In this document: positions 1,895 to 52,676 of the stretch, piece by piece
Position numbering within the stretch: the stretch's first letter is position 1
How the letters are laid out: each line of letters begins with the position of its first letter
Origin: Candidatus Woesearchaeota archaeon
Lineage (GTDB): Archaea > Nanobdellota > Nanobdellia > Woesearchaeales > SM23-78
Direction: 5' to 3'
DNA: 64,000 nt
NCBI GenBank assembly: GCA_019322375.1
Contig: JAHWIP010000003.1
Location: forward strand, 6,792 to 70,791
Translations under genes and position numbers: made by a program
The notes under the pieces: generated by a model
Databases searched by the model: none
Seen by the model: the letters and a program-made list of their open reading frames with translations, nothing else
Told to the model about the DNA's origin: nothing

Positions 1895-2100
1895 TTAATG
1901 TGCATTTCTTCTGAGTTAGGGGTATCTATGTTGGAGCAAGGGTGGGTGAGGCCGATTCGCGAGGGCATCCCTTAGCTTAACAATCAGAGCGGAGTCGGGG
2001 GACGCCCCAGCCGGGGGAACGGAGCCCTAGGAAAAATAACTAGGCCCGAGCTGGCCCCACCCTTGCGAAGCAACGGCTTGGAGAAATCAGGGCTAATTAG
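1895..2100 (+). ncRNA. GC-rich ORF-free island, candidate structured ncRNA (SRP 7S RNA considered but not confirmed)
   Basis: About 60 percent GC in a one-third GC genome, between convergent genes; perfect 11-bp long-range pairing GCAAGGGTGGG(1938-1948)/CCCACCCTTGC(2059-2069) enclosing several local hairpins (CGGGGGACGCCCC, CCTAGGAAAAATAACTAGG); contains GAAGCAACGG reminiscent of SRP helix-8 3' strand but no GGAA tetraloop in expected place. Confidence 0.35.
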
Positions 2101-11885: not shown

Positions 11886-12875
11886 TCATATCTTCTTCAC
11901 TATCATGCCTTTAAAATCTTTGCTTAGCATTTCTTTGGCTTTTTTAGTCATGTCTGCTGTTGTTATGAATATTACCGGCAGTTTCCTGGCCTGTCCTTGC
12001 ACATAAGCACTGCTTAGGTCGCCGTCATTTATTTTCTTTTTCTTTTTTGCTTTGCAATAGTATTCCTGGCTTCCTATACGAGAAGGAACTGCCAGAGTTA
12101 GTTCTATGTCTGATTTTTTCCTTTTAATCTTGTACTCAAGCACCTGTATATCATTCTTTTTGCAATAACCCCAAACTTTTTTGAAGAAAGAATCTTTTTC
12201 TCTTTCCAAATCTTCAGATGGTATGCCTAGTTCTTGCTGGACTTCTTCTCTTGATTCTTTCTTTTCGTCTTTTTCCTCTTCCTTTGCCACAGCAACCCTC
12301 GCGAGCTTTGGGCGAGCGAGCAACAAATCTTTTTCTTTTTCAGTTTTTTCTTCAGTTTTTATTTCTTCTTGCTTTATTTCGGGTTTCTTTTCCTCAACTT
12401 TCTTAACAGGCACCTTTACCACTTTTCTCGCAGGCCTTATCTCACTTAGTATCATCTGCTCTGCTTCCTTTGTCGGCGTCATATACCATTTCCAATAGAT
12501 TTCTCTCTGCCCTTTAACTGTTACTTCCAATGGCTTTGCAAAATCCCTTATGCTTCTCAAACTAACTCTTACTAATGGGCTTAAATCCCTGTCTTTCAAA
12601 ATCTTTTTCTGCCTTAACAACTCTGCTGTTTTCCTGTCTTTTTCATTCAAATACTTCATTAAGTTCTGCAGCCTTACCTCTGTTCCTGGCGTGTAATAAG
12701 CAGGTGTGCTCCCAACTTTTGTATTGGTTACATTGACTTTGCCTGCTTCTTTTAACTCTGCGAGTATAGCTCCAAGAAGAATTGTATCTCCTGCCTTGAT
12801 AATCTTTTTCAGCTCATTAGGAATAAGAGGCCCTCTCATCTGCACAACTTTAAGAATGTCTTCTTTGTTAACCAT
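11886..12875 (-). CDS. Winged-helix N-terminal domain + Mrr-like restriction-endonuclease catalytic domain protein with K/E-rich linker
   Basis: 329 aa; C-terminus DIELTLAVPS..QEYYCKAK..KLPVIFITTADMTKKAKEM resembles Mrr_cat (PD-(D/E)xK; vqCK and ifiTTs.ft motifs); linker contains GC-rich palindromic element. Confidence 0.4.
   Translation of the reverse strand: MVNKEDILKVVQMRGPLIPNELKKIIKAGDTILLGAILAELKEAGKVNVTNTKVGSTPAYYTPGTEVRLQNLMKYLNEKDRKTAELLRQKKILKDRDLSPLVRVSLRSIRDFAKPLEVTVKGQREIYWKWYMTPTKEAEQMILSEIRPARKVVKVPVKKVEEKKPEIKQEEIKTEEKTEKEKDLLLARPKLARVAVAKEEEKDEKKESREEVQQELGIPSEDLEREKDSFFKKVWGYCKKNDIQVLEYKIKRKKSDIELTLAVPSRIGSQEYYCKAKKKKKINDGDLSSAYVQGQARKLPVIFITTADMTKKAKEMLSKDFKGMIVKKI
12297..12323 (-). 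repeat. GC-rich palindromic element copy B (TTGCTCGCTCGCCCAAAGCTCGCGAGG), in-frame inside CDS
   Basis: Near-identical to 47995-48023 and ends match 61421-61447. Confidence 0.8.
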
Positions 12876-12979: not shown

Positions 12980-13717
12980 TCAGGGTCTCATCCATTTAAT
13001 CTCATAATAAGTAACATCGCCTTCGTCGTCTACTATGCCCATCATTAATCTCTTTTTGGTACTATGAGCCACCCTGTTCTTGGCTGCAAACTCATACCAT
13101 GTTAAGGTTTCTCCTTCATGTACTGGAAAGATTATCCATCTTGCATGGTCTTCTCCTGGCCTTATTCCTCTGTCATAAACCCTGAAATCAGCTCCAAACT
13201 TTAGCGCAGTCTTAATTATATACCCGCGATTCCTCATATCCTTAAACACACAATACCTTATCCAGAAGTTTGGCTCTACTGTTCTTGCTTTTTTTATGAA
13301 TTCCTCTGAGGTAATTGCTTTTTTTCTTTTTTCAGAAATGATTATCTTGCCTTTTTCAAGCAGATACAGTGCTTCTGGCAGTGAGAGCTGCACTTTGCCG
13401 TCTTCCATTACTTGTCCATAAGCACTTTTGCTAAACAGGTTTCTTGCTTCATCTGTTGACTCTGTTATCACTCTTTCCCTTGCAAACATGGCTTTGATTA
13501 CTTCTTTTGGCTTTTTTTCTGTTAGTTTTTCTTTTGGTTTTTCAGCTACTTTAACCTCTACTTTGGCTTTCTTCTTGCTTTCTTTCTTCTTAGCACTTTT
13601 CTTTTTTTTACTGGTTTTCTTCTTTGAAGAAATGCTCAAAGGTTTACCTTTGGCACTCAAAGGCTCTGCCTTTGATGGCTCAGAAGATTTATCTTCTGTT
13701 GTTTTTTTCTTTGCCAT
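12980..13717 (-). CDS. endA: tRNA-splicing endonuclease catalytic subunit (EndA) with lysine-rich N-terminal extension
   Basis: C-terminal ALKFGADFRVYDRG..HARWIIF..RVAHSTKKRLMMG matches EndA catalytic domain (Y, H, K triad context); start chosen at MAKKKTT (ORF-track start 13825 would overlap divergent gene). Confidence 0.7.
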   Translation of the reverse strand: MAKKKTTEDKSSEPSKAEPLSAKGKPLSISSKKKTSKKKKSAKKKESKKKAKVEVKVAEKPKEKLTEKKPKEVIKAMFARERVITESTDEARNLFSKSAYGQVMEDGKVQLSLPEALYLLEKGKIIISEKRKKAITSEEFIKKARTVEPNFWIRYCVFKDMRNRGYIIKTALKFGADFRVYDRGIRPGEDHARWIIFPVHEGETLTWYEFAAKNRVAHSTKKRLMMGIVDDEGDVTYYEIKWMRP

Positions 13718-19569: not shown

Positions 19570-20289
19570 ATGAACCAGCACTTCCTGGAACAAGCAGGAT
19601 TAACATCAACAGAAGCAAAAATATACCTGTGCCTGCTGGAAAAAGGCTCAATAAGAGCAGGAGAGATATCAACACACACAGGCATACACAGGAGAAGCGT
19701 GTATGACTCTGTTGAACGCCTGATACAAAAAGGCCTGGCATCGTATATAAAAACTAACAACAGAAGGTATTACAAGGCAGCTGACCCTGAGAAGCTGCTG
19801 GAACTGCTCAAAGAAAAACAAGACAACATAAAGCAGATAATGCCAGAGCTAGAACTCCTGAGAAAATATTCAGAAGAAAAAAAAGAAACTGTTTTTTTCA
19901 GGGGCAAACAAGCCATAAAAACAGTTTTTGACGACCAGATAAAAGCAGGCAAGGAAATACTGGTGTTTGGAGACGCAGTTAATGTAAACGAGATAATAAA
20001 ATACTATTTCCTGCACTTTGACAAGCAAAGAATAGACAAGAAGATAAGAGTAAAAATGCTTTTTGATGAGAGCGCAAGAAAAGAAAAATACCTGAAAAAA
20101 ATCCCCTTGGCAGAGATAAGATTCATAAAAAAAGGAAGCAAAGCATCCACATCAACAAACATATACGGCGATAAAGTGTCCATAATCATGTGGGAAAAGA
20201 ATCCCAAAGCTATATTAATAAAAGAAGCCTCCCTGGCCCAGAGCTTTAAAAGCTATTTTGAATTCATGTGGGGGTTTGCAAGGAAATGA
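19570..20289 (+). CDS. TrmB-family transcriptional regulator
   Basis: GLTSTEAKIYLCLLEKGSIRAGEISTHTGIHRRSVYDSVERLIQKGLA = TrmB N-terminal wHTH; heads glycosylation operon. Confidence 0.65.
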   Translation: MNQHFLEQAGLTSTEAKIYLCLLEKGSIRAGEISTHTGIHRRSVYDSVERLIQKGLASYIKTNNRRYYKAADPEKLLELLKEKQDNIKQIMPELELLRKYSEEKKETVFFRGKQAIKTVFDDQIKAGKEILVFGDAVNVNEIIKYYFLHFDKQRIDKKIRVKMLFDESARKEKYLKKIPLAEIRFIKKGSKASTSTNIYGDKVSIIMWEKNPKAILIKEASLAQSFKSYFEFMWGFARK

Positions 20290-32261: not shown

Positions 32262-32630
32262 CTTAAGGTAGAGCAGTTATAAGCCGCCTTTTGTCAGCCT
32301 CCACGTCTTGCATGGGCAGGCTGTGCTTAACATTCTACTAAGCGTCTCAAAGGACTTGCACCAGTGAGGACTCGCCGTTTCACCCATTCCCATGGCTTAA
32401 AGCGGTCGGGTTGTTAACTCGCGCCCTGTTGCCAGAGTGCTTCATTACCCTCATTCCTATCCATAGGTGGTCTCGTTTCTGAGCCGTTGCCCTGGCTTTC
32501 ACCAGCTAGCTTCCACTAGTCACTTTTCATGGTGGGCGGACTTTCCTAAGCAGAACAAGTCAAAACCGCGCCTTTGAAAGCGCAGGAAATGATAGGTCCT
32601 ACCTGCTGTTAAGCCACTGCCCTACCTGTG
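32262..32630 (-). ncRNA. rnpB: RNase P RNA (type A)
   Basis: On minus strand: GGAAAGUCCGCCCACC (P4 5' strand), AUGGGUGAAACGGCGAGUCC (conserved J11/12-like block), ACAAAAGGCGGCUUAUA (P4 3' strand complementary to GUCCGCC); GC-rich ORF-free about 370 nt. Confidence 0.75.
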
Positions 32631-46755: not shown

Positions 46756-48078
46756 ATGATTAACATGCCTTTAGAACAGATTAAGAGCAGGATTTCTGAA
46801 AAAACAGGCTTGTCAGATGAGGAGCTGGATGACAAGATTAAGGCTAAGCTTAAGCAGTTGTCAGGGCTTATTTCTGAGCAAGGAGCTGCTCATATAATTG
46901 CTAATGAGCTTGGTGTGAAGCTGTTTGAGATTGGTGAAAAGCTCCAGATAAAAAATGTGTTGACTGGCATGCGCAATGTTGATGTTGTTGGCAAGATACT
47001 GCAGAAATACGAGCTTAGAGAGTTTCAGACAGAAAAGCATTCTGGAAAGGTTTCTAACATGCTCATAGGTGATGAGACAGGTGTTATTCGTGTTGTTATG
47101 TGGCACAAGCAGGCAGAGAATATTAATAGTGTTAAAGAAGGAGATGTGGTCAAGATAAGAGGTGGCTATGTAAGGGATAACCAGGGCAGAAAAGAAATTC
47201 ATCTGAGCGAGCTCTCAAAATTCATTATTAATCCTCCTGGTGTTGAAGTAGAAGCAAAGCCTTATGAGCGCCCTGTTGCTGTTAGAAAGAGCATTGCTGA
47301 TATAAAAGAAGATGATGCTAGTGTTGAAATCTTAGCCACTATTGTGCAGGTGTTTGATATAAACTTTTTTGAGGTGTGCCCGCAGTGCAGCAAGAGGATA
47401 AGGCTTGGGGACCAAGGCTTTTTATGCCCGACCCACAGTATTGTGGAGCCGGATTATAATTATGTATTAAACCTTTACCTTGATGATGGAAGTGATAATA
47501 TAAGAGCTGTTTTCTGGAGGCAGCAGGCAGAGCAACTATTAGATATGGACAAATCCAAGGTAATGGTTTTTAAAGATGACCCTGCCAAGTTTGAGCCAAT
47601 AAAAACAGAGCTCCTGGGAAATATTATTTTGGTGAGTGGAAGAGCTAATAAGAATCAGAACTTTGACAGGATTGAGCTGGTTGCTAATAAGATTGACAAA
47701 AGCCCTGACCCTGATGAAGAGATAAAGAAGTTAAAACAAGAAGCAGACAAAGCAGTTGCGCAGGATGAAGGTGGGGATGAAGAGCAACAGAAATCGAAGA
47801 TTTCTGAGGGTTCCTACGGAACCGAAGAGGAAATAAAGCAGGAAGTAGCTGGTGGGGATGAAGAGGAAGAGATTAAGCAAGAGGAAGTAAAGGCAGAGGA
47901 AATTAAGGAAGAAGAACCTGTTGAAGAGGAAGTAAAAGAAGAAAAAATAGAAGAAGAGCCTATTAAAAAGAAAACAAAAGAAAAAGAAGATTCATTGCTC
48001 GCTCGCCAAGGCTCGCGAGAAAGCCAGGATGACTTAGAAAACCTTGACCTGGATAAAGAGTTAGAGGATATTGAGTGA
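46756..48078 (+). CDS. rpa: Replication protein A (RPA) with OB folds, Zn-ribbon and acidic repetitive tail
   Basis: LISEQGAAHIIANELGV.., NVDVVGKIL..GDETGVIRVVMWHK (OB fold), CPQCSKR..CPTHS Zn ribbon; start set at MINMPLEQ (ORF-track start 46636 overlaps upstream gene). Confidence 0.7.
   Translation: MINMPLEQIKSRISEKTGLSDEELDDKIKAKLKQLSGLISEQGAAHIIANELGVKLFEIGEKLQIKNVLTGMRNVDVVGKILQKYELREFQTEKHSGKVSNMLIGDETGVIRVVMWHKQAENINSVKEGDVVKIRGGYVRDNQGRKEIHLSELSKFIINPPGVEVEAKPYERPVAVRKSIADIKEDDASVEILATIVQVFDINFFEVCPQCSKRIRLGDQGFLCPTHSIVEPDYNYVLNLYLDDGSDNIRAVFWRQQAEQLLDMDKSKVMVFKDDPAKFEPIKTELLGNIILVSGRANKNQNFDRIELVANKIDKSPDPDEEIKKLKQEADKAVAQDEGGDEEQQKSKISEGSYGTEEEIKQEVAGGDEEEEIKQEEVKAEEIKEEEPVEEEVKEEKIEEEPIKKKTKEKEDSLLARQGSRESQDDLENLDLDKELEDIE
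47995..48023 (+). repeat. GC-rich palindromic element copy A (TTGCTCGCTCGCCAAGGCTCGCGAGAAAG), in-frame in RPA tail
   Basis: Matches 12297-12323 (minus) over 26 nt and 61421-61447 (minus) at both arms. Confidence 0.8.
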
Positions 48079-48091
48079 ATTAAAAATGTAC

Positions 48092-50200
48092 TTATCTTAC
48101 AACCCTGTCAAGACCAGCTTTTATAAAGGGCTCTTTTAATTTGTTTAATGCTTTTAATTCAATCTGTCTTATTCTTTCCCTGGTAACTTTGAATTCTATA
48201 CCAACTTCGTCCAAGGTATGGAAATTATACTTACCAATTCCAAAGCGCATGTAAAGAATTTTAATTTTTCTTTTACGGTCAGGATCCTTTTTAAAAGTGT
48301 CATGGATAACTTTTCTGACCTGATAACCTACTAATGATTGTGCAGCAGCATGTTCAGTATCAGCTTTTGGATCCTCAACAAGCTCACCTATTTCAACCTC
48401 TACTTCTTCTCCTATTGTTGTTGATAGTGAGATTGGTTTTTCAGCCCATTTTTTATACTTCTCAACTCTTTCCTCAGCAACATTCATTTCTTTAGCAACT
48501 TCTTCTGTTGTTGGCTCTCTGCCTAACCTGCCAAATAATTTCCTGGCAATTCCCAAGTACTTGTTTATTTTTTCCACTGAATGCACAGGAGTCCTGATAG
48601 TCCTTGCCTGGTCTGCTATAGCCCTTGTTATTGACTGTTTAATCCACCAAGTAGCATATGTTGAAAATTTATACCCTCTTCTGTATTCCCAGCTGTCTAT
48701 TGCTCTTAGAGCTCCCATGTTTCCCTCCTGAATCAGGTCAGTAAATTCCATACCCCTGTGCTGGTATTTTTTTGCTATACTCACAACCAGTTTTGTATTT
48801 GAACTTGCAAGCTCATTTTTGTTAGATATAAGCTCATCATGAAGCTTTTCTATTTCAGGGCTAACAGGGTCAAGATGAGGAAATATTGATTTGTAAGTTT
48901 CATAAGTTTTTTTCCAGTATTTTTTTTTGAATTTAAGTTTGCTAAGAAGCTTTTTCAGTGCAAAATCTCCTTTTTCTTTGGCATTATGAAAGTTCTCTAT
49001 AAATTCTATTTTTTCCCGAGCAGTCTTCTCATAACCTTTCCAAAGTCGTACTATTTCATCCGGGTGATTTATTTTAATAGCCTTTTCTATATCTTTTACA
49101 ACATAATCAACCAGGCATTCTGGCTTCTTATTGTCGCCTTGCAGGGAGCGCTCTTCAGACAATCCATTGTACAAGAAATTCCTGCTCTCAATTGTTTTGA
49201 ACTCATTAAACAGTTCTGTTAAGTATTTTGTTACAAACAAGTATTTTCCTAGAAAAGATTTTAGGGCTTTCTCCCTTCTTTTCTCAGCCTTTTCAAACTT
49301 TTTTTTGAAGACGTTCACATCTTCACAACAAATAATATCTTCAAGGTCTTTTCCCTTGTTTTCAAGGGTTTCATCCAAGCTTTCACCATGTTTTTTATTC
49401 AAGGCTTCCTGGGCTTCCAGGGCTTCATTAATATCCTTTCTTATTTTATTTAAGATATATTTTTTCTCAATAATATGCTTGAATATTTCTTCTCTTTTCT
49501 GCTCTATTTTTTTTCCAAAAGCATATTCCTGCTCTCTTGTTAGCAAGGCGTGCTTGCCCATGGAACTTAAAATAAAACTTGTTTCACTGCCAATATATGT
49601 CTTTCTCAAGTCTACTTTATCCTCCTCAAGGTCAGAGTACTCTTTTATCAAGAACTTATAATTATCATTAAAAATCTTATTTTTGTTTTCCAGAGCAGTT
49701 CTGTGCATGTCAAGAAGCAAGTTATAATAGAACTTTCTAACATCTGCCCTGTCATATTTTTTTCCATAGTCTAACTTAACAGGGTCGACATACCTGCTTA
49801 GTATAATGTCATGTTTTTTCATGTATGGGTCTCCGAATTCTTTTGGAGTCTTGGTTTCAATCTCTCTTTTTTTTTGCATCAGGTATGCCATAAATCCCCT
49901 TAACGAGATATAACTGTCTCTGTTTATATAGTCCAGGCAGAAAAAAGGATTTTTCTTAGCAAGCTTGATAAGAGCGCTGTTTTCAATATGAAATACTTTA
50001 GCAAGGTCAGCTGTTCTGAGCCTTTGGGAGTATCCAACTTCTTGTTTTAGAACAGAACCTTTTTGTATCAGGTCAAGAAAGAATTTTGAATCCATCTCTA
50101 TGTTTTCCCAGACAGAGGCTCCGAATTTTTCTTTGATTTGAGCAGGGCGCAGGTATATACCTTTGCTCTCTTCTAGAAAAGCATGGGCTGCTTCTTGCAT
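48092..50200 (-). CDS. Bacterial-type primary sigma-70 family factor homologue (regions 1.2, 2, 3, 4 present)
   Basis: [17 protein letters not shown] (region 1.2); [76 protein letters not shown] (regions 2.1-2.4, near-identical to RpoD consensus); ..[38 protein letters not shown] (region 4 HTH). Confidence 0.8.
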
Positions 50201-52498: not shown

Positions 52499-52676
52499 CC
52501 CCCGCGCCCCTCTGTTTTGCTACTGAATAATAGATATTTTATTTAAACCTTTCTATTTTAGAGACACAGATTTGACAGATAATAATTGCAAGCCATGTTT
52601 ATATACTTTACTCAGGGATGTCCAGTGCCTATTTTAGAAAATTTTTTAAACTACTGTTCTTATACCATATACTAGA

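What the first reader, a model, noticed from the sequence alone, without database searches (positions are those of the whole stretch)
47995..48023. 28-nt GC-rich palindromic element occurs in three copies, twice in-frame within coding regions
TTGCTCGCTCGCCAAGGCTCGCGAGAAAG (47995-48023, RPA acidic tail) is nearly identical to the minus-strand sequence at 12297-12323, which sits inside the K/E-rich linker of the wHTH-Mrr protein. A third copy with the same arms (TTGCTCGCTC..N8..CGCGAGAAA) lies at 61421-61447, immediately upstream of the protease gene start. The arms are inverted repeats of each other (TTGCTCGC / GCGAGAAA). In both coding copies the element keeps the reading frame and encodes LLAR. 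In-frame insertion of short palindromic elements into disordered protein regions is known from Rickettsia palindromic elements. An analogous element in a DPANN-type genome has apparently not been described.
Basis: seen in the sequence. Interest (0 to 1): 0.6.

Follow-up and report, generated by a model that had tools for sequence, protein, structure and literature searches.

The report
Promoter-linked palindromic repeat, also inside genes
The 28-base GC-rich sequence is a real repeat shared by a small group of Woesearchaeota; it normally sits between the promoter and the start codon of unrelated genes, and in this genome two copies have also ended up, in frame, in disordered parts of two DNA-binding proteins.

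Summary
Three copies of TGCTCGCTCRC-N3-5-GYTCGCGAG lie in the window, against 0.01 expected by chance. Conservation is at the nucleotide level. The second half, GCTCGCGAG, is read in all three frames among coding copies. In the winged-helix gene the element has the lowest amino-acid identity but the highest third-codon-position identity.

The element belongs to a sharply bounded family: covariance-model hits score 34.8 bits or more, and the next hit scores 16.8. The family is confined to a narrow Woesearchaeal clade. A related genome, SM23-78, has at least 14 copies. Fifteen of 18 independent sites are intergenic. They lie directly after the A/T-rich promoter stretch, usually 7-43 nt before a start codon, and always in the same orientation.

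In SM23-78 the element is the 3' module of a roughly 105-nt cassette. That cassette is at least 80% identical upstream of unrelated genes. It splits a gene pair that overlaps in this window. The RPA copy is a gain of about 33 nt that is absent from close orthologues.

As an RNA hairpin the element is no more stable than shuffled sequence. My best reading is a propagated promoter-proximal protein-binding site whose coding copies are tolerated in-frame insertions. The comparison with Rickettsia palindromic elements holds for behaviour but not for membership.

A second, strongly covarying double hairpin sits in the endonuclease gene at 13635-13675.

The parts
47995..48023 (+). Copy 1 of the repeat, in frame in the K/E-rich C-terminal tail of the RPA-like protein (read LLARQGSRE).
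   Evidence: 43.1 bits. A stretch of about 33 nt is absent from orthologues L183 and L185.
12298..12326 (-). Copy 2, in frame in the disordered linker of the tandem winged-helix protein (read LLLARPKLAR).
   Evidence: 40.1 bits. The same nucleotides sit at the same spot in L002, L004 and L006. The linker has pLDDT below 50.
61419..61447 (-). Copy 3, non-coding, between the A/T-rich promoter stretch and the start of the Peptidase_C25 gene.
   Evidence: 46.4 bits. The geometry matches the intergenic copies in SM23-78.
61448..61480 (-). A/T-rich, TATA-like stretch directly 5' of copy 3 (AATTAAAAATTAAGTTAAAAATAATTATT).
   Evidence: It resembles the A/T-rich part of the SM23-78 cassettes (0.70-0.76 identity over 100 nt).
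46756..48078 (+). RPA-like ssDNA-binding protein gene, host of copy 1. The start follows the 440-aa database protein P0001.
   Evidence: PF01336, PF08646, PF16900.
11886..12875 (-). Tandem winged-helix protein gene, host of copy 2.
58923..61412 (-). Peptidase_C25-like secreted protein gene, downstream of copy 3.
13635..13675 (-). Related phenomenon, not the same family: 'element B', two tandem hairpins in frame in the N-terminal extension of the tRNA-splicing endonuclease gene.

Best explanation
The sequence is one member of a lineage-restricted dispersed repeat, T-GCTCGC-TC-RC-N2-5-GY-TC-GCGAG, whose normal place is the core-promoter/leader region of genes.

Shown:
- The family is sharply defined and confined to a small Woesearchaeal clade.
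- Most sites are intergenic. They abut the A/T-rich promoter stretch, lie 7-43 nt before a start codon, and all have the same orientation.
- In SM23-78 the repeat is the 3' module of a roughly 105-nt cassette that recurs upstream of unrelated genes. The cassette is inserted between a gene pair that overlaps or nearly abuts in other genomes, including this window.
- The RPA copy is a lineage-specific gain of about 33 nt.
- The winged-helix copy is shared by at least four species and is conserved as nucleotides, not as amino acids.

Inferred:
- The repeat spreads by copying of promoter cassettes or by short-patch recombination helped by A-rich flanks.
- When it lands in coding DNA, only frame-preserving copies in disordered K/E-rich segments survive. 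The element has no stop codons in any frame, which helps.
- It most likely works as a sequence-specific protein-binding DNA site overlapping the transcription start region, that is, an operator or core-promoter module. Its primary sequence is invariant while its hairpin is weak. It also fills the space between the TATA-like box and the predicted start site.
For: - Family definition: 26 covariance-model hits at 34.8 bits or more, with the next hit at 16.8 bits, in 886 kb searched.
- Copy number: at least 14 copies in SM23-78.
- Context and orientation.
- Promoter geometry: ordinary promoters in these genomes have a TTTATAAA-like box ending at about -23/-24 from the ATG, which fits leaderless transcripts. 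Repeat-bearing promoters have their best box ending at -37 to -47, with the repeat at -30 to -8. That places the predicted start site inside the repeat.
- Cassette identity: 80-94% over the 100 nt upstream of unrelated genes.
- Filled versus empty site: the TrmB-like and PMT_2-like genes are 107 nt apart in SM23-78, 10 nt apart in L004, and overlap by ATGA in this window.
- RPA gain.
- Nucleotide-level constraint: three reading frames for GCTCGCGAG. At the element, third-position identity is 0.77-0.82 while amino-acid identity is 0.40-0.51.
- Weak hairpin: z-scores of -1.2, +0.2 and -1.1.
- Pairing: six of seven pairs never vary and one covaries.
Against: - No transcription start data exist, so the position relative to the start site rests on an assumed TATA box in a very A/T-rich stretch. 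A box further upstream would put the whole repeat in a 5' leader.
- No binding protein has been identified.
- The genes downstream share no functional theme: ROK kinase, hydrogenase small subunit, TopoVI-A, thymidylate synthase, LemA, PMT_2-like, debranching-like enzyme and a C25 peptidase.
- The one orthologous promoter that could be compared is not conserved in having the repeat. This fits spread better than a fixed regulon.
- The spacing between the outer arms varies from 10 to 13 nt (11-12 in intergenic copies), which is awkward for a rigid dimeric DNA binder.
- A DNA operator gives no reason for nucleotide conservation inside the winged-helix gene.
- The copy number in this window's own genome is unknown beyond 3 per 64 kb.
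Confidence: 0.5

Rival explanations
1. A selfish, REP- or RPE-like mobile hairpin. The imperfect palindrome is the recognition site of a single-strand DNA transposase of the Y1/RAYT or IS200-IS605 type. It has no host function. Its position near gene starts and in disordered-region coding DNA simply marks where insertions are tolerated.
For: - It is a 23-25 nt imperfect GC-rich palindrome with invariant arms, mostly extragenic and multi-copy.
- There is a presence/absence polymorphism of the cassette.
- There is a lineage-specific gain in RPA.
- The cassette has no terminal inverted repeats and no target duplication, as in IS200/IS605-derived elements (the family features come from my own knowledge).
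- The downstream gene set is heterogeneous.
- The copy in the L126 orthologue has decayed.
Against: - No transposase gene was seen in any fetched locus (Pfam lists).
- There are no inverted doublets of the REPIN type.
- Seven sites lie a near-constant 7-12 nt from the start codon, which is not expected from tolerated random insertion.
- The arms are identical across genomes whose proteins are only 65-80% identical, which looks like purifying selection rather than a recent burst.
- RAYTs are not known from archaea (own knowledge).
Confidence: 0.22
2. An RNA-level element. The repeat is transcribed, in 5' leaders and inside the two coding regions, and forms a short stem-loop bound by an RNA-binding protein, or one that masks the GAGG Shine-Dalgarno-like bases in its 3' arm. 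It would control translation or mRNA stability.
For: - All 18 sites are in sense orientation relative to the gene they precede or sit in.
- The 3' arm GCGAG followed by G gives GAGG 6-7 nt before many start codons.
- One inner pair covaries, G-C in 12 copies and A-U in 7.
- Loop length varies by 2-5 nt, which hairpins tolerate.
- The unrelated element B shows that structured elements can exist inside disordered-region coding sequence in these genomes.
Against: - Folding energy is not better than shuffled sequence (z = -1.2, +0.2, -1.1).
- Six of seven pairs never vary, so there is little positive evidence for pairing.
- The conserved TC/TC mismatch and the invariant primary sequence point to sequence-specific rather than shape-specific recognition.
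- With the nearest TATA-like box, the predicted start site lies inside the repeat, so the 5' arm would not be transcribed.
- There is no Rfam match.
Confidence: 0.15
3. A short peptide motif, L-L/V-L-A-R, selected at the protein level in the disordered regions of RPA and the winged-helix protein. The DNA similarity would be a by-product.
For: - Both coding copies read LLAR in the same frame.
- Many winged-helix orthologues have a hydrophobic P-L-V-x-A-x-A patch at the same linker position, and some RPA tails have it too.
Against: - The same nucleotides occur in 15 non-coding sites.
- The second half is read in three frames and the GatA copy uses another frame for the first half.
- Rare G+C-rich codons are identical between copies.
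- Amino-acid identity at the element is the lowest in the gene while third-position identity is the highest.
Confidence: 0.04
4. A chance recurrence of a G+C-rich string.
For: None beyond the short length of the element.
Against: Expected count is 0.01-0.05 against 3 observed. Covariance-model E-values are 1e-10 to 1e-12. The element recurs in related genomes at an orthologous site.
Confidence: 0.01

Closest known systems
Rickettsia palindromic elements (RPEs)
   Same: Both are dispersed palindromic repeats found between genes and also inserted in frame in unrelated protein-coding genes without destroying them (review PMC10969869, read).
   Different: RPEs are about 150 bp, fall into ten families, and each encodes a conserved peptide. 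This element is 23-33 nt and is read in different frames. Fifteen of 18 sites are non-coding and promoter-proximal. It occurs in an archaeal lineage.
REP / REPIN elements with RAYT transposases (bacteria)
   Same: Both are 20-40 nt imperfect G+C-rich palindromes with highly conserved sequence, mostly extragenic and multi-copy. The REP features come from my own knowledge; PMC8049555 was listed but not read.
   Different: REPs typically sit at 3' ends of genes or between convergent genes, and often as inverted doublets next to a RAYT gene. Here all copies are single and lie 5' of genes in one orientation. No RAYT-like gene was seen.
Putative mobile promoters, and promoter-carrying MITEs such as Correia elements
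   Same: In both, a stretch of about 100 nt immediately upstream of unrelated genes is at least 80% identical within one genome (definition in PMC3488235; met in SM23-78). The cassette is inserted between genes that are coupled elsewhere. Correia elements likewise sit immediately upstream of genes and carry promoters.
   Different: This is an archaeal TATA-type context. No terminal inverted repeats or target duplications were found. The short G+C-rich module also occurs alone and inside coding sequence.
Archaeal repressor operators placed between the TATA box and the start site (for example NrpR, Phr, MDR1 and TrmB-family sites)
   Same: Both show dyad symmetry and lie directly downstream of the TATA-like box, overlapping the predicted start site. 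The operator paradigm comes from my own knowledge.
   Different: No cognate regulator is known and the gene set has no theme. The site is not conserved at the one orthologous promoter compared. Copies also occur inside genes.
IS200/IS605-derived palindrome-associated elements (PATEs) of haloarchaea and cyanobacteria
   Same: Both are small non-autonomous elements without terminal inverted repeats or target duplications, with G+C-rich imperfect palindromes near the ends (own knowledge).
   Different: No TnpA or TnpB partner was found. The left-end motif has no convincing hairpin. This is an unverified lead only.

Membership tests
Rickettsia palindromic elements | Repeat unit of roughly 100-150 bp | tested here: not met
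   The core is 23-25 nt. The RPA insertion is about 33 nt. RPE size comes from PMC10969869.
Rickettsia palindromic elements | In-frame insertion into unrelated ORFs without disruption | tested here: met
   The RPA tail, the winged-helix linker and the GatA loop are all open through the element. The RPA copy is absent from orthologues.
Rickettsia palindromic elements | Each family encodes one conserved peptide | tested here: not met
   The second half is read in three frames and the first half in two. Most copies are non-coding.
REP/REPIN-RAYT | 20-40 nt imperfect palindrome, conserved in sequence, mostly extragenic | tested here: met
   Fifteen of 18 sites are intergenic.
REP/REPIN-RAYT | Inverted doublets (REPINs) or clusters | tested here: not met
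   All copies are single. Loci with two copies have them more than 3 kb apart and in the same orientation.
REP/REPIN-RAYT | Cognate RAYT (Y1 transposase) gene in the genome | not testable with these tools
   Only fragments of the genomes are held. No transposase Pfam hits appear in the gene lists.
MITE | Terminal inverted repeats | tested here: not met
   Only internal A/T-rich palindromes were found. The two G+C-rich ends are not complementary.
MITE | Target-site duplication | tested here: not met
   None is visible at the one filled/empty comparison, L002 versus L004 and the window.
MITE | Small, multi-copy, with presence/absence polymorphism | tested here: met
   The roughly 105-nt cassette has at least 7 copies at 80% identity or more in SM23-78. 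It is inserted between the TrmB-like and PMT_2-like genes only in SM23-78.
Putative mobile promoters (Matus-Garcia et al. 2012) | 50-100 nt upstream of non-homologous genes, at least 80% identical within a genome | tested here: met
   This is met in SM23-78 (0.80-0.94). It is not testable in this window, which has only one intergenic copy.
Archaeal operator / regulon site | Dyad-symmetric site overlapping the TATA-to-start region | tested here: inconclusive
   The geometry fits, but the start site is predicted, not measured.
Archaeal operator / regulon site | Conserved upstream of orthologous genes across species | tested here: not met
   The PMT_2-like gene has the repeat in SM23-78 but not in the window, L004, L124, L131 or L137. 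Only this one gene could be compared.
Archaeal operator / regulon site | Cognate DNA-binding regulator | not testable with these tools
   A small winged-helix-like gene lies downstream of one copy (L020), but it has no homologue in the held data.
CRISPR repeat | Regularly spaced array of repeats and spacers | tested here: not met
   No array was found in the window. All copies are solitary.

The most novel reading that the evidence does not exclude
A clade of Woesearchaeota may carry several families of short, dyad-symmetric sequence modules that move between promoters and the disordered-region-coding parts of nucleic-acid-handling genes (RPA, tRNA-splicing endonuclease, a tandem winged-helix protein). 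These are the CTCGC repeat studied here, the double-hairpin 'element B', and the 'PLVAAGA' module. Selection would act on the nucleic acid rather than on the peptide. In element B, 5 of 13 pairs show compensatory changes that alter amino acids. That would make this an archaeal counterpart of the Rickettsia elements and a distinct route by which disordered protein regions are built.
Probability: 0.3. Interest if true: 0.75.

Novelty: new variant of a known kind. Interest (0 to 1): 0.5.

Why it matters
Almost nothing is known about cis-regulatory or repetitive DNA in DPANN archaea. A full-text search found no paper combining DPANN, Woesearchaeota or Nanoarchaeota with MITE or REP terms.

This repeat gives a concrete, searchable promoter-proximal motif for one Woesearchaeal clade. 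It also gives a clean example of a promoter cassette splitting an operon. And it shows that the same short sequence can be fixed in frame inside disordered regions of replication proteins.

If the repeat is a binding site, it defines a candidate regulon and a handle for finding the regulator. If it is selfish, it extends REP- and RPE-like behaviour to reduced archaeal genomes.

The practical consequence for annotation is that short 'insertions' in K/E-rich tails of these proteins can be DNA elements rather than protein features.

Tried and rejected
- **Virus origin.** The pattern scan of viral contigs gave two hits, both in 66-72% G+C DNA, so they are noise.
- **Known RNA family.** Rfam at gathering threshold finds only RNase P RNA in the window.
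- **CRISPR repeat.** There is no array.
- **Bulge-helix-bulge intron or K-turn.** The symmetric 2x2 TC/TC internal loop does not fit either, judging from the sequence.
- **Internal start codon after the coding copy.** In the window a GTG lies 7 nt after copy 2, in frame, mimicking the promoter geometry. In L002, L004 and L006 the distance is 13 nt, 22 nt or there is none, so I treat it as coincidence.
- **Rearrangement at the cassette.** L003 appears to join the TrmB-like gene to the ROK gene, but the contig ends 50 nt after the repeat. This is probably an assembly break at a repeat, and I did not use it.
- **Terminal inverted repeats in the cassette.** None were found.
- **The small winged-helix-like protein downstream of the L020 copy as regulator.** It has no homologue in the held data.
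- **The GatA copy (L073) as a clean insertion.** The loop is only about 2 residues longer than in solved GatA structures, so insertion is not demonstrable.
- **'Mrr' identity of the host protein.** There is no Pfam hit and no PDB sequence match. The fold search matches only the tandem winged-helix part, and weakly.
- **Other G+C-rich palindromes upstream of genes in the window.** None of this type were found.
- **More distant winged-helix orthologues.** About 600 kb from other Woesearchaeota holds no copy. Their linkers carry shorter G+C-rich 'PLVxAxA' stretches that may be relics or a different module.
Full report
**Observation**

- Copy 1 is at + 47995-48023, in the tail of the RPA-like gene.
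- Copy 2 is on the minus strand, 12323 down to 12298, in ORF 11886..12875(-).
- Copy 3 is on the minus strand, 61447 down to 61424. It ends 11 nt before the TTG start of ORF 58923..61412(-), a Peptidase_C25-like protein.

CTCGC-N6-20-GCGAG occurs only at these three places, against 0.01 expected from shuffles. The window comes from a Candidatus Woesearchaeota contig (NCBI tags KY348_00505 and KY348_00290) and is 37% G+C. A 60-70% G+C string occurring three times in such DNA is not chance.

**Nucleotide or peptide?**

Copies 1 and 2 share TTGCTCGCTCGCC, then differ by one base in length, then share GCTCGCGAG. The second half is therefore read G-S-R-E in RPA and K-L-A-R in the winged-helix protein. 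In the orthologue L006 the spacer is 2 nt shorter than in copy 2 and the same nine bases are read A-R-E, so all three frames are used.

I built a codon alignment of five winged-helix orthologues. At the element, amino-acid identity is 0.40-0.51, the lowest of any aligned stretch. Third-position identity there is 0.77-0.82, the highest in the gene. The constraint, or the homogenisation, therefore acts on the DNA.

**Family and distribution**

An exact-pattern scan of one genome per species returned mostly G+C-rich bacterial noise. It also returned 11 loci from 'Euryarchaeota archaeon SM23-78' (a Woesearchaeote), one locus each from two other Woesearchaeota/Nanoarchaeia MAGs, and L015 (labelled Methanobacteriota, identical to the L004 winged-helix region).

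A covariance model built from 21 copies was searched over 886 kb: the window, those loci, and 59 loci around winged-helix orthologues from metagenomes. It gave 26 hits at 34.8-49.8 bits. The next hit scored 16.8 bits and is a visibly decayed copy in the L126 orthologue. About 600 kb from more distant Woesearchaeota has no copy. The family is sharply bounded and confined to a narrow clade.

**Context**

After removing duplicates there are 18 independent sites.

Three are coding:
- the RPA tail, in this genome only;
- the winged-helix linker, one orthologous site shared by the window, SM23-78/L003/L122, L004/L005/L015 and L006/L007;
- a variable loop of GatA in L073, read in yet another frame.

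Fifteen are intergenic. In every one the repeat directly follows an A/T-rich stretch (...AATAATTATT|TGCTCGC...). In 13 of them a same-strand start codon follows within 70 nt:
- 7 nt in four cases;
- 11-12 nt in three, including the window copy;
- 18-43 nt in five.

The downstream genes have no common theme. They are ROK kinase, a hydrogenase small subunit, TopoVI-A, thymidylate synthase, LemA, a PMT_2-like membrane protein, a Memo/AMMECR1 fusion (assigned from the sequence, not from a Pfam search), a debranching-like enzyme (likewise) and the C25 peptidase.

**Promoter geometry**

In 36 ordinary upstream regions from L002, L004 and L185, the best TTTATAAA-like box ends between -21 and -27 from the ATG in 21 cases, with the mode at -23/-24. 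That is the spacing expected for leaderless transcripts.

In repeat-bearing promoters the repeat occupies about -30 to -8, and the best box ends at -37 to -47. The predicted start site therefore falls inside the repeat. This is an inference from spacing in a very A/T-rich stretch. It is not a measurement.

**Cassette and insertion**

Seven SM23-78 copies share 80-94% identity over the 100 nt before the start codon of unrelated genes. The shared unit runs from a G+C-rich left motif (GCCYGTCCGGCGWTTGAGAACTC) through about 45 nt of A/T to the repeat. Other copies share only the repeat itself.

The orthologous gene pair TrmB-like then PMT_2-like differs in spacing between genomes:
- separated by exactly this 107-nt unit in SM23-78;
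- separated by 10 nt in L004;
- separated by 4 nt in L131;
- overlapping by ATGA in this window at 20286-20289.

The cassette was therefore inserted into a coupled gene pair. I found no terminal inverted repeats and no target duplication.

**The coding copies**

Among 120 RPA homologues only the window's protein has the LLAR segment. DNA alignment with the closest orthologues shows about 33 nt present only in the window, just before the conserved DDLENLDLDKELEDIE end. Those orthologues are L183, from the same sample as the L006 genome, and L185, from SM23-78. Both of those genomes do have the repeat in their winged-helix gene. The RPA copy is therefore a recent, lineage-specific gain.

Copy 1 resembles copy 2 (the CGC...GCT subtype, with similar GAAAAAGA flanks) more than copy 3 (the CAC...GTT subtype). 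It may have been copied from copy 2 through the A-rich low-complexity flanks. That is inference.

The host segments are disordered. The linker has pLDDT below 50 at residues 151-214, between two confident winged-helix domains and a poorly modelled C-terminal part. The element has no stop codon in any frame, so only length matters for tolerance.

**Structure**

The proposed stem is CTCGC/GCGAG, a conserved TC/TC mismatch, an inner RC/GY pair, and a 2-5 nt loop.

Six of the seven pairs never vary. One covaries, G-C in 12 copies and A-U in 7, with 2 unpaired. That could be a single event separating two subfamilies.

RNA folding energies of the three window copies are not better than shuffled sequence (z = -1.2, +0.2, -1.1). 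Invariant primary sequence with a weak fold points to sequence-specific recognition by a protein rather than a shape-based RNA element.

**Mechanism and rivals**

I rank the readings as follows.
- **Propagated promoter-proximal protein-binding DNA module, with coding copies as tolerated in-frame insertions (0.5).** The binding-site function is the least secure part.
- **Selfish REP- or RPE-like hairpin moved by an unseen transposase (0.22).**
- **RNA leader or coding-sequence hairpin (0.15).** This is helped by the uniform sense orientation and by the GAGG in the 3' arm.
- **Peptide motif (0.04).**
- **Chance (0.01).**

The heterogeneous gene set and the non-conserved promoter position argue against a classical regulon and for spread. 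The near-constant distance to start codons and cross-genus sequence invariance argue against purely neutral insertion.

**Comparison with known elements**

The behaviour resembles Rickettsia palindromic elements in its in-frame coding insertions. Membership fails on size and on the conserved-peptide feature.

It meets the sequence definition of REPs but lacks doublets and a known RAYT.

The SM23-78 cassettes meet the published definition of putative mobile promoters. They also resemble promoter-bearing MITEs such as Correia elements, but without inverted repeats.

A literature search found no description of such repeats in DPANN archaea.

The right arm CTCGCGAG(A) resembles the eukaryotic promoter motif TCTCGCGAGA (PMC2920758, listed). 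I treat this as a curiosity, not evidence.

**Side findings**

- **Element B, window 13635-13675(-).** It lies in the N-terminal extension of the tRNA-splicing endonuclease gene and consists of two tandem hairpins encoding SKAEPLSAKGKPLS. Nearly the same DNA (45 of 48 nt) sits in an RPA tail (L186) and a winged-helix linker (L187), and three times in another endonuclease gene (L125). Five of 13 pairs show compensatory changes, several of which alter amino acids (Ala to Thr together with Pro to Ser or Phe). Ninety-seven per cent of cells pair, 0 of 500 shuffles reach this, and the fold is -21.4 kcal/mol with z = -5.0. This is stronger evidence for a nucleic-acid structure inside coding sequence than anything seen for the element in the finding.
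- **Element C.** A 'PLVAAGA' module, TTAGTGGCCGCAGGCGCA preceded by CCT/ACT, is identical over 19 nt between an RPA tail and a winged-helix linker from different samples.

**Limits**

- The genome scan was truncated.
- The source genome beyond this window was not available.
- No expression data exist.
- All functional statements are inferences from position and conservation.

Noticed in passing
window 13635-13675 (-), in ORF 12980..13717(-) (tRNA-splicing endonuclease); also L186:6569-6608, L187:848-887, L125:4040-4364: 'Element B' is two tandem hairpins (TCAAAGGCAGAGCCTTTGA / CAAAGGTAAACCTTTG) in frame, encoding SKAEPLSAKGKPLS. Nearly identical DNA occurs in three different genes (endonuclease, RPA tail, winged-helix linker) in different genomes. 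Five of 13 pairs show compensatory changes that alter amino acids. RNA fold z = -5.0. All known copies are coding.
   Followed up: partly
L186:6634-6651 (RPA tail) and L127:4271-4288, L133:6723, L135:2278 (winged-helix linkers): 'Element C', TTAGTGGCCGCAGGCGCA ('PLVAAGA'), is identical over 19 nt between an RPA tail and a winged-helix linker from different samples. It sits at the same linker position as the repeat studied here.
   Followed up: partly
window 48092-50200 (-): A 702-aa ORF has bacterial sigma-70 regions 1.2, 2, 3 and 4 in an otherwise archaeal context (RPA, RadA, tRNA endonuclease, archaeal RNase P RNA). Sigma-70 genes in Woesearchaeota have been reported (PMC8204110).
   Followed up: partly
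window 20286-20289; L002:934-1040: The stop of the TrmB-like gene overlaps the start of the PMT_2-like gene (ATGA) in this window. In SM23-78 the same pair is split by a 107-nt cassette carrying the repeat.
   Followed up: yes
window 1930-2080 (intergenic, between ORFs ending at 1891 and 2162): A G+C-rich island (up to 20 of 22 bases) has a 10-bp long-range helix CAAGGGUGGG/CCCACCCUUG. It has no Rfam match at E up to 1, and folding z-scores are only -0.9 (+ strand) and -2.0 (- strand). It may be an unannotated structured RNA.
   Followed up: partly
window 52619-52648 (+) and 61496-61534 (-): A shared motif, TGTCCAGTGC..ATTTT..GAAAATTTTT, lies upstream of two gene starts and is duplicated in tandem at 61516-61534. 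It loosely resembles the left-end motif of the SM23-78 cassette.
   Followed up: no
window 61560-61700 (intergenic, upstream of the 92-aa ORF at 61751): Several short G+C-rich hairpins are present (GGCGC-TGTCAAG-GCGCC, CTTTCC-AAAAAA-GGAAAG, GGTAAG-AATTACGTG-CTTACC). A similar GGCGCC..GCGCC hairpin lies upstream of the syntenic gene in L185.
   Followed up: no
window 32269-32573 (-): Archaeal RNase P RNA, 121 bits.
   Followed up: no
window 11886-12875 (-): The host protein of copy 2 has no Pfam or PDB sequence match. The model shows two winged-helix domains (residues 1-146) that weakly resemble tandem-WH proteins (TFIIIC tauB, RPC34, ScpB, MarR), a disordered linker, and a low-confidence C-terminal domain. 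The 'Mrr' label is unverified.
   Followed up: partly
L003:1-77: The contig ends 50 nt after a repeat copy and appears to join the TrmB-like gene to the ROK kinase gene. This is likely an assembly break or chimera at the repeat, which warns against reading rearrangements from such contig ends.
   Followed up: no
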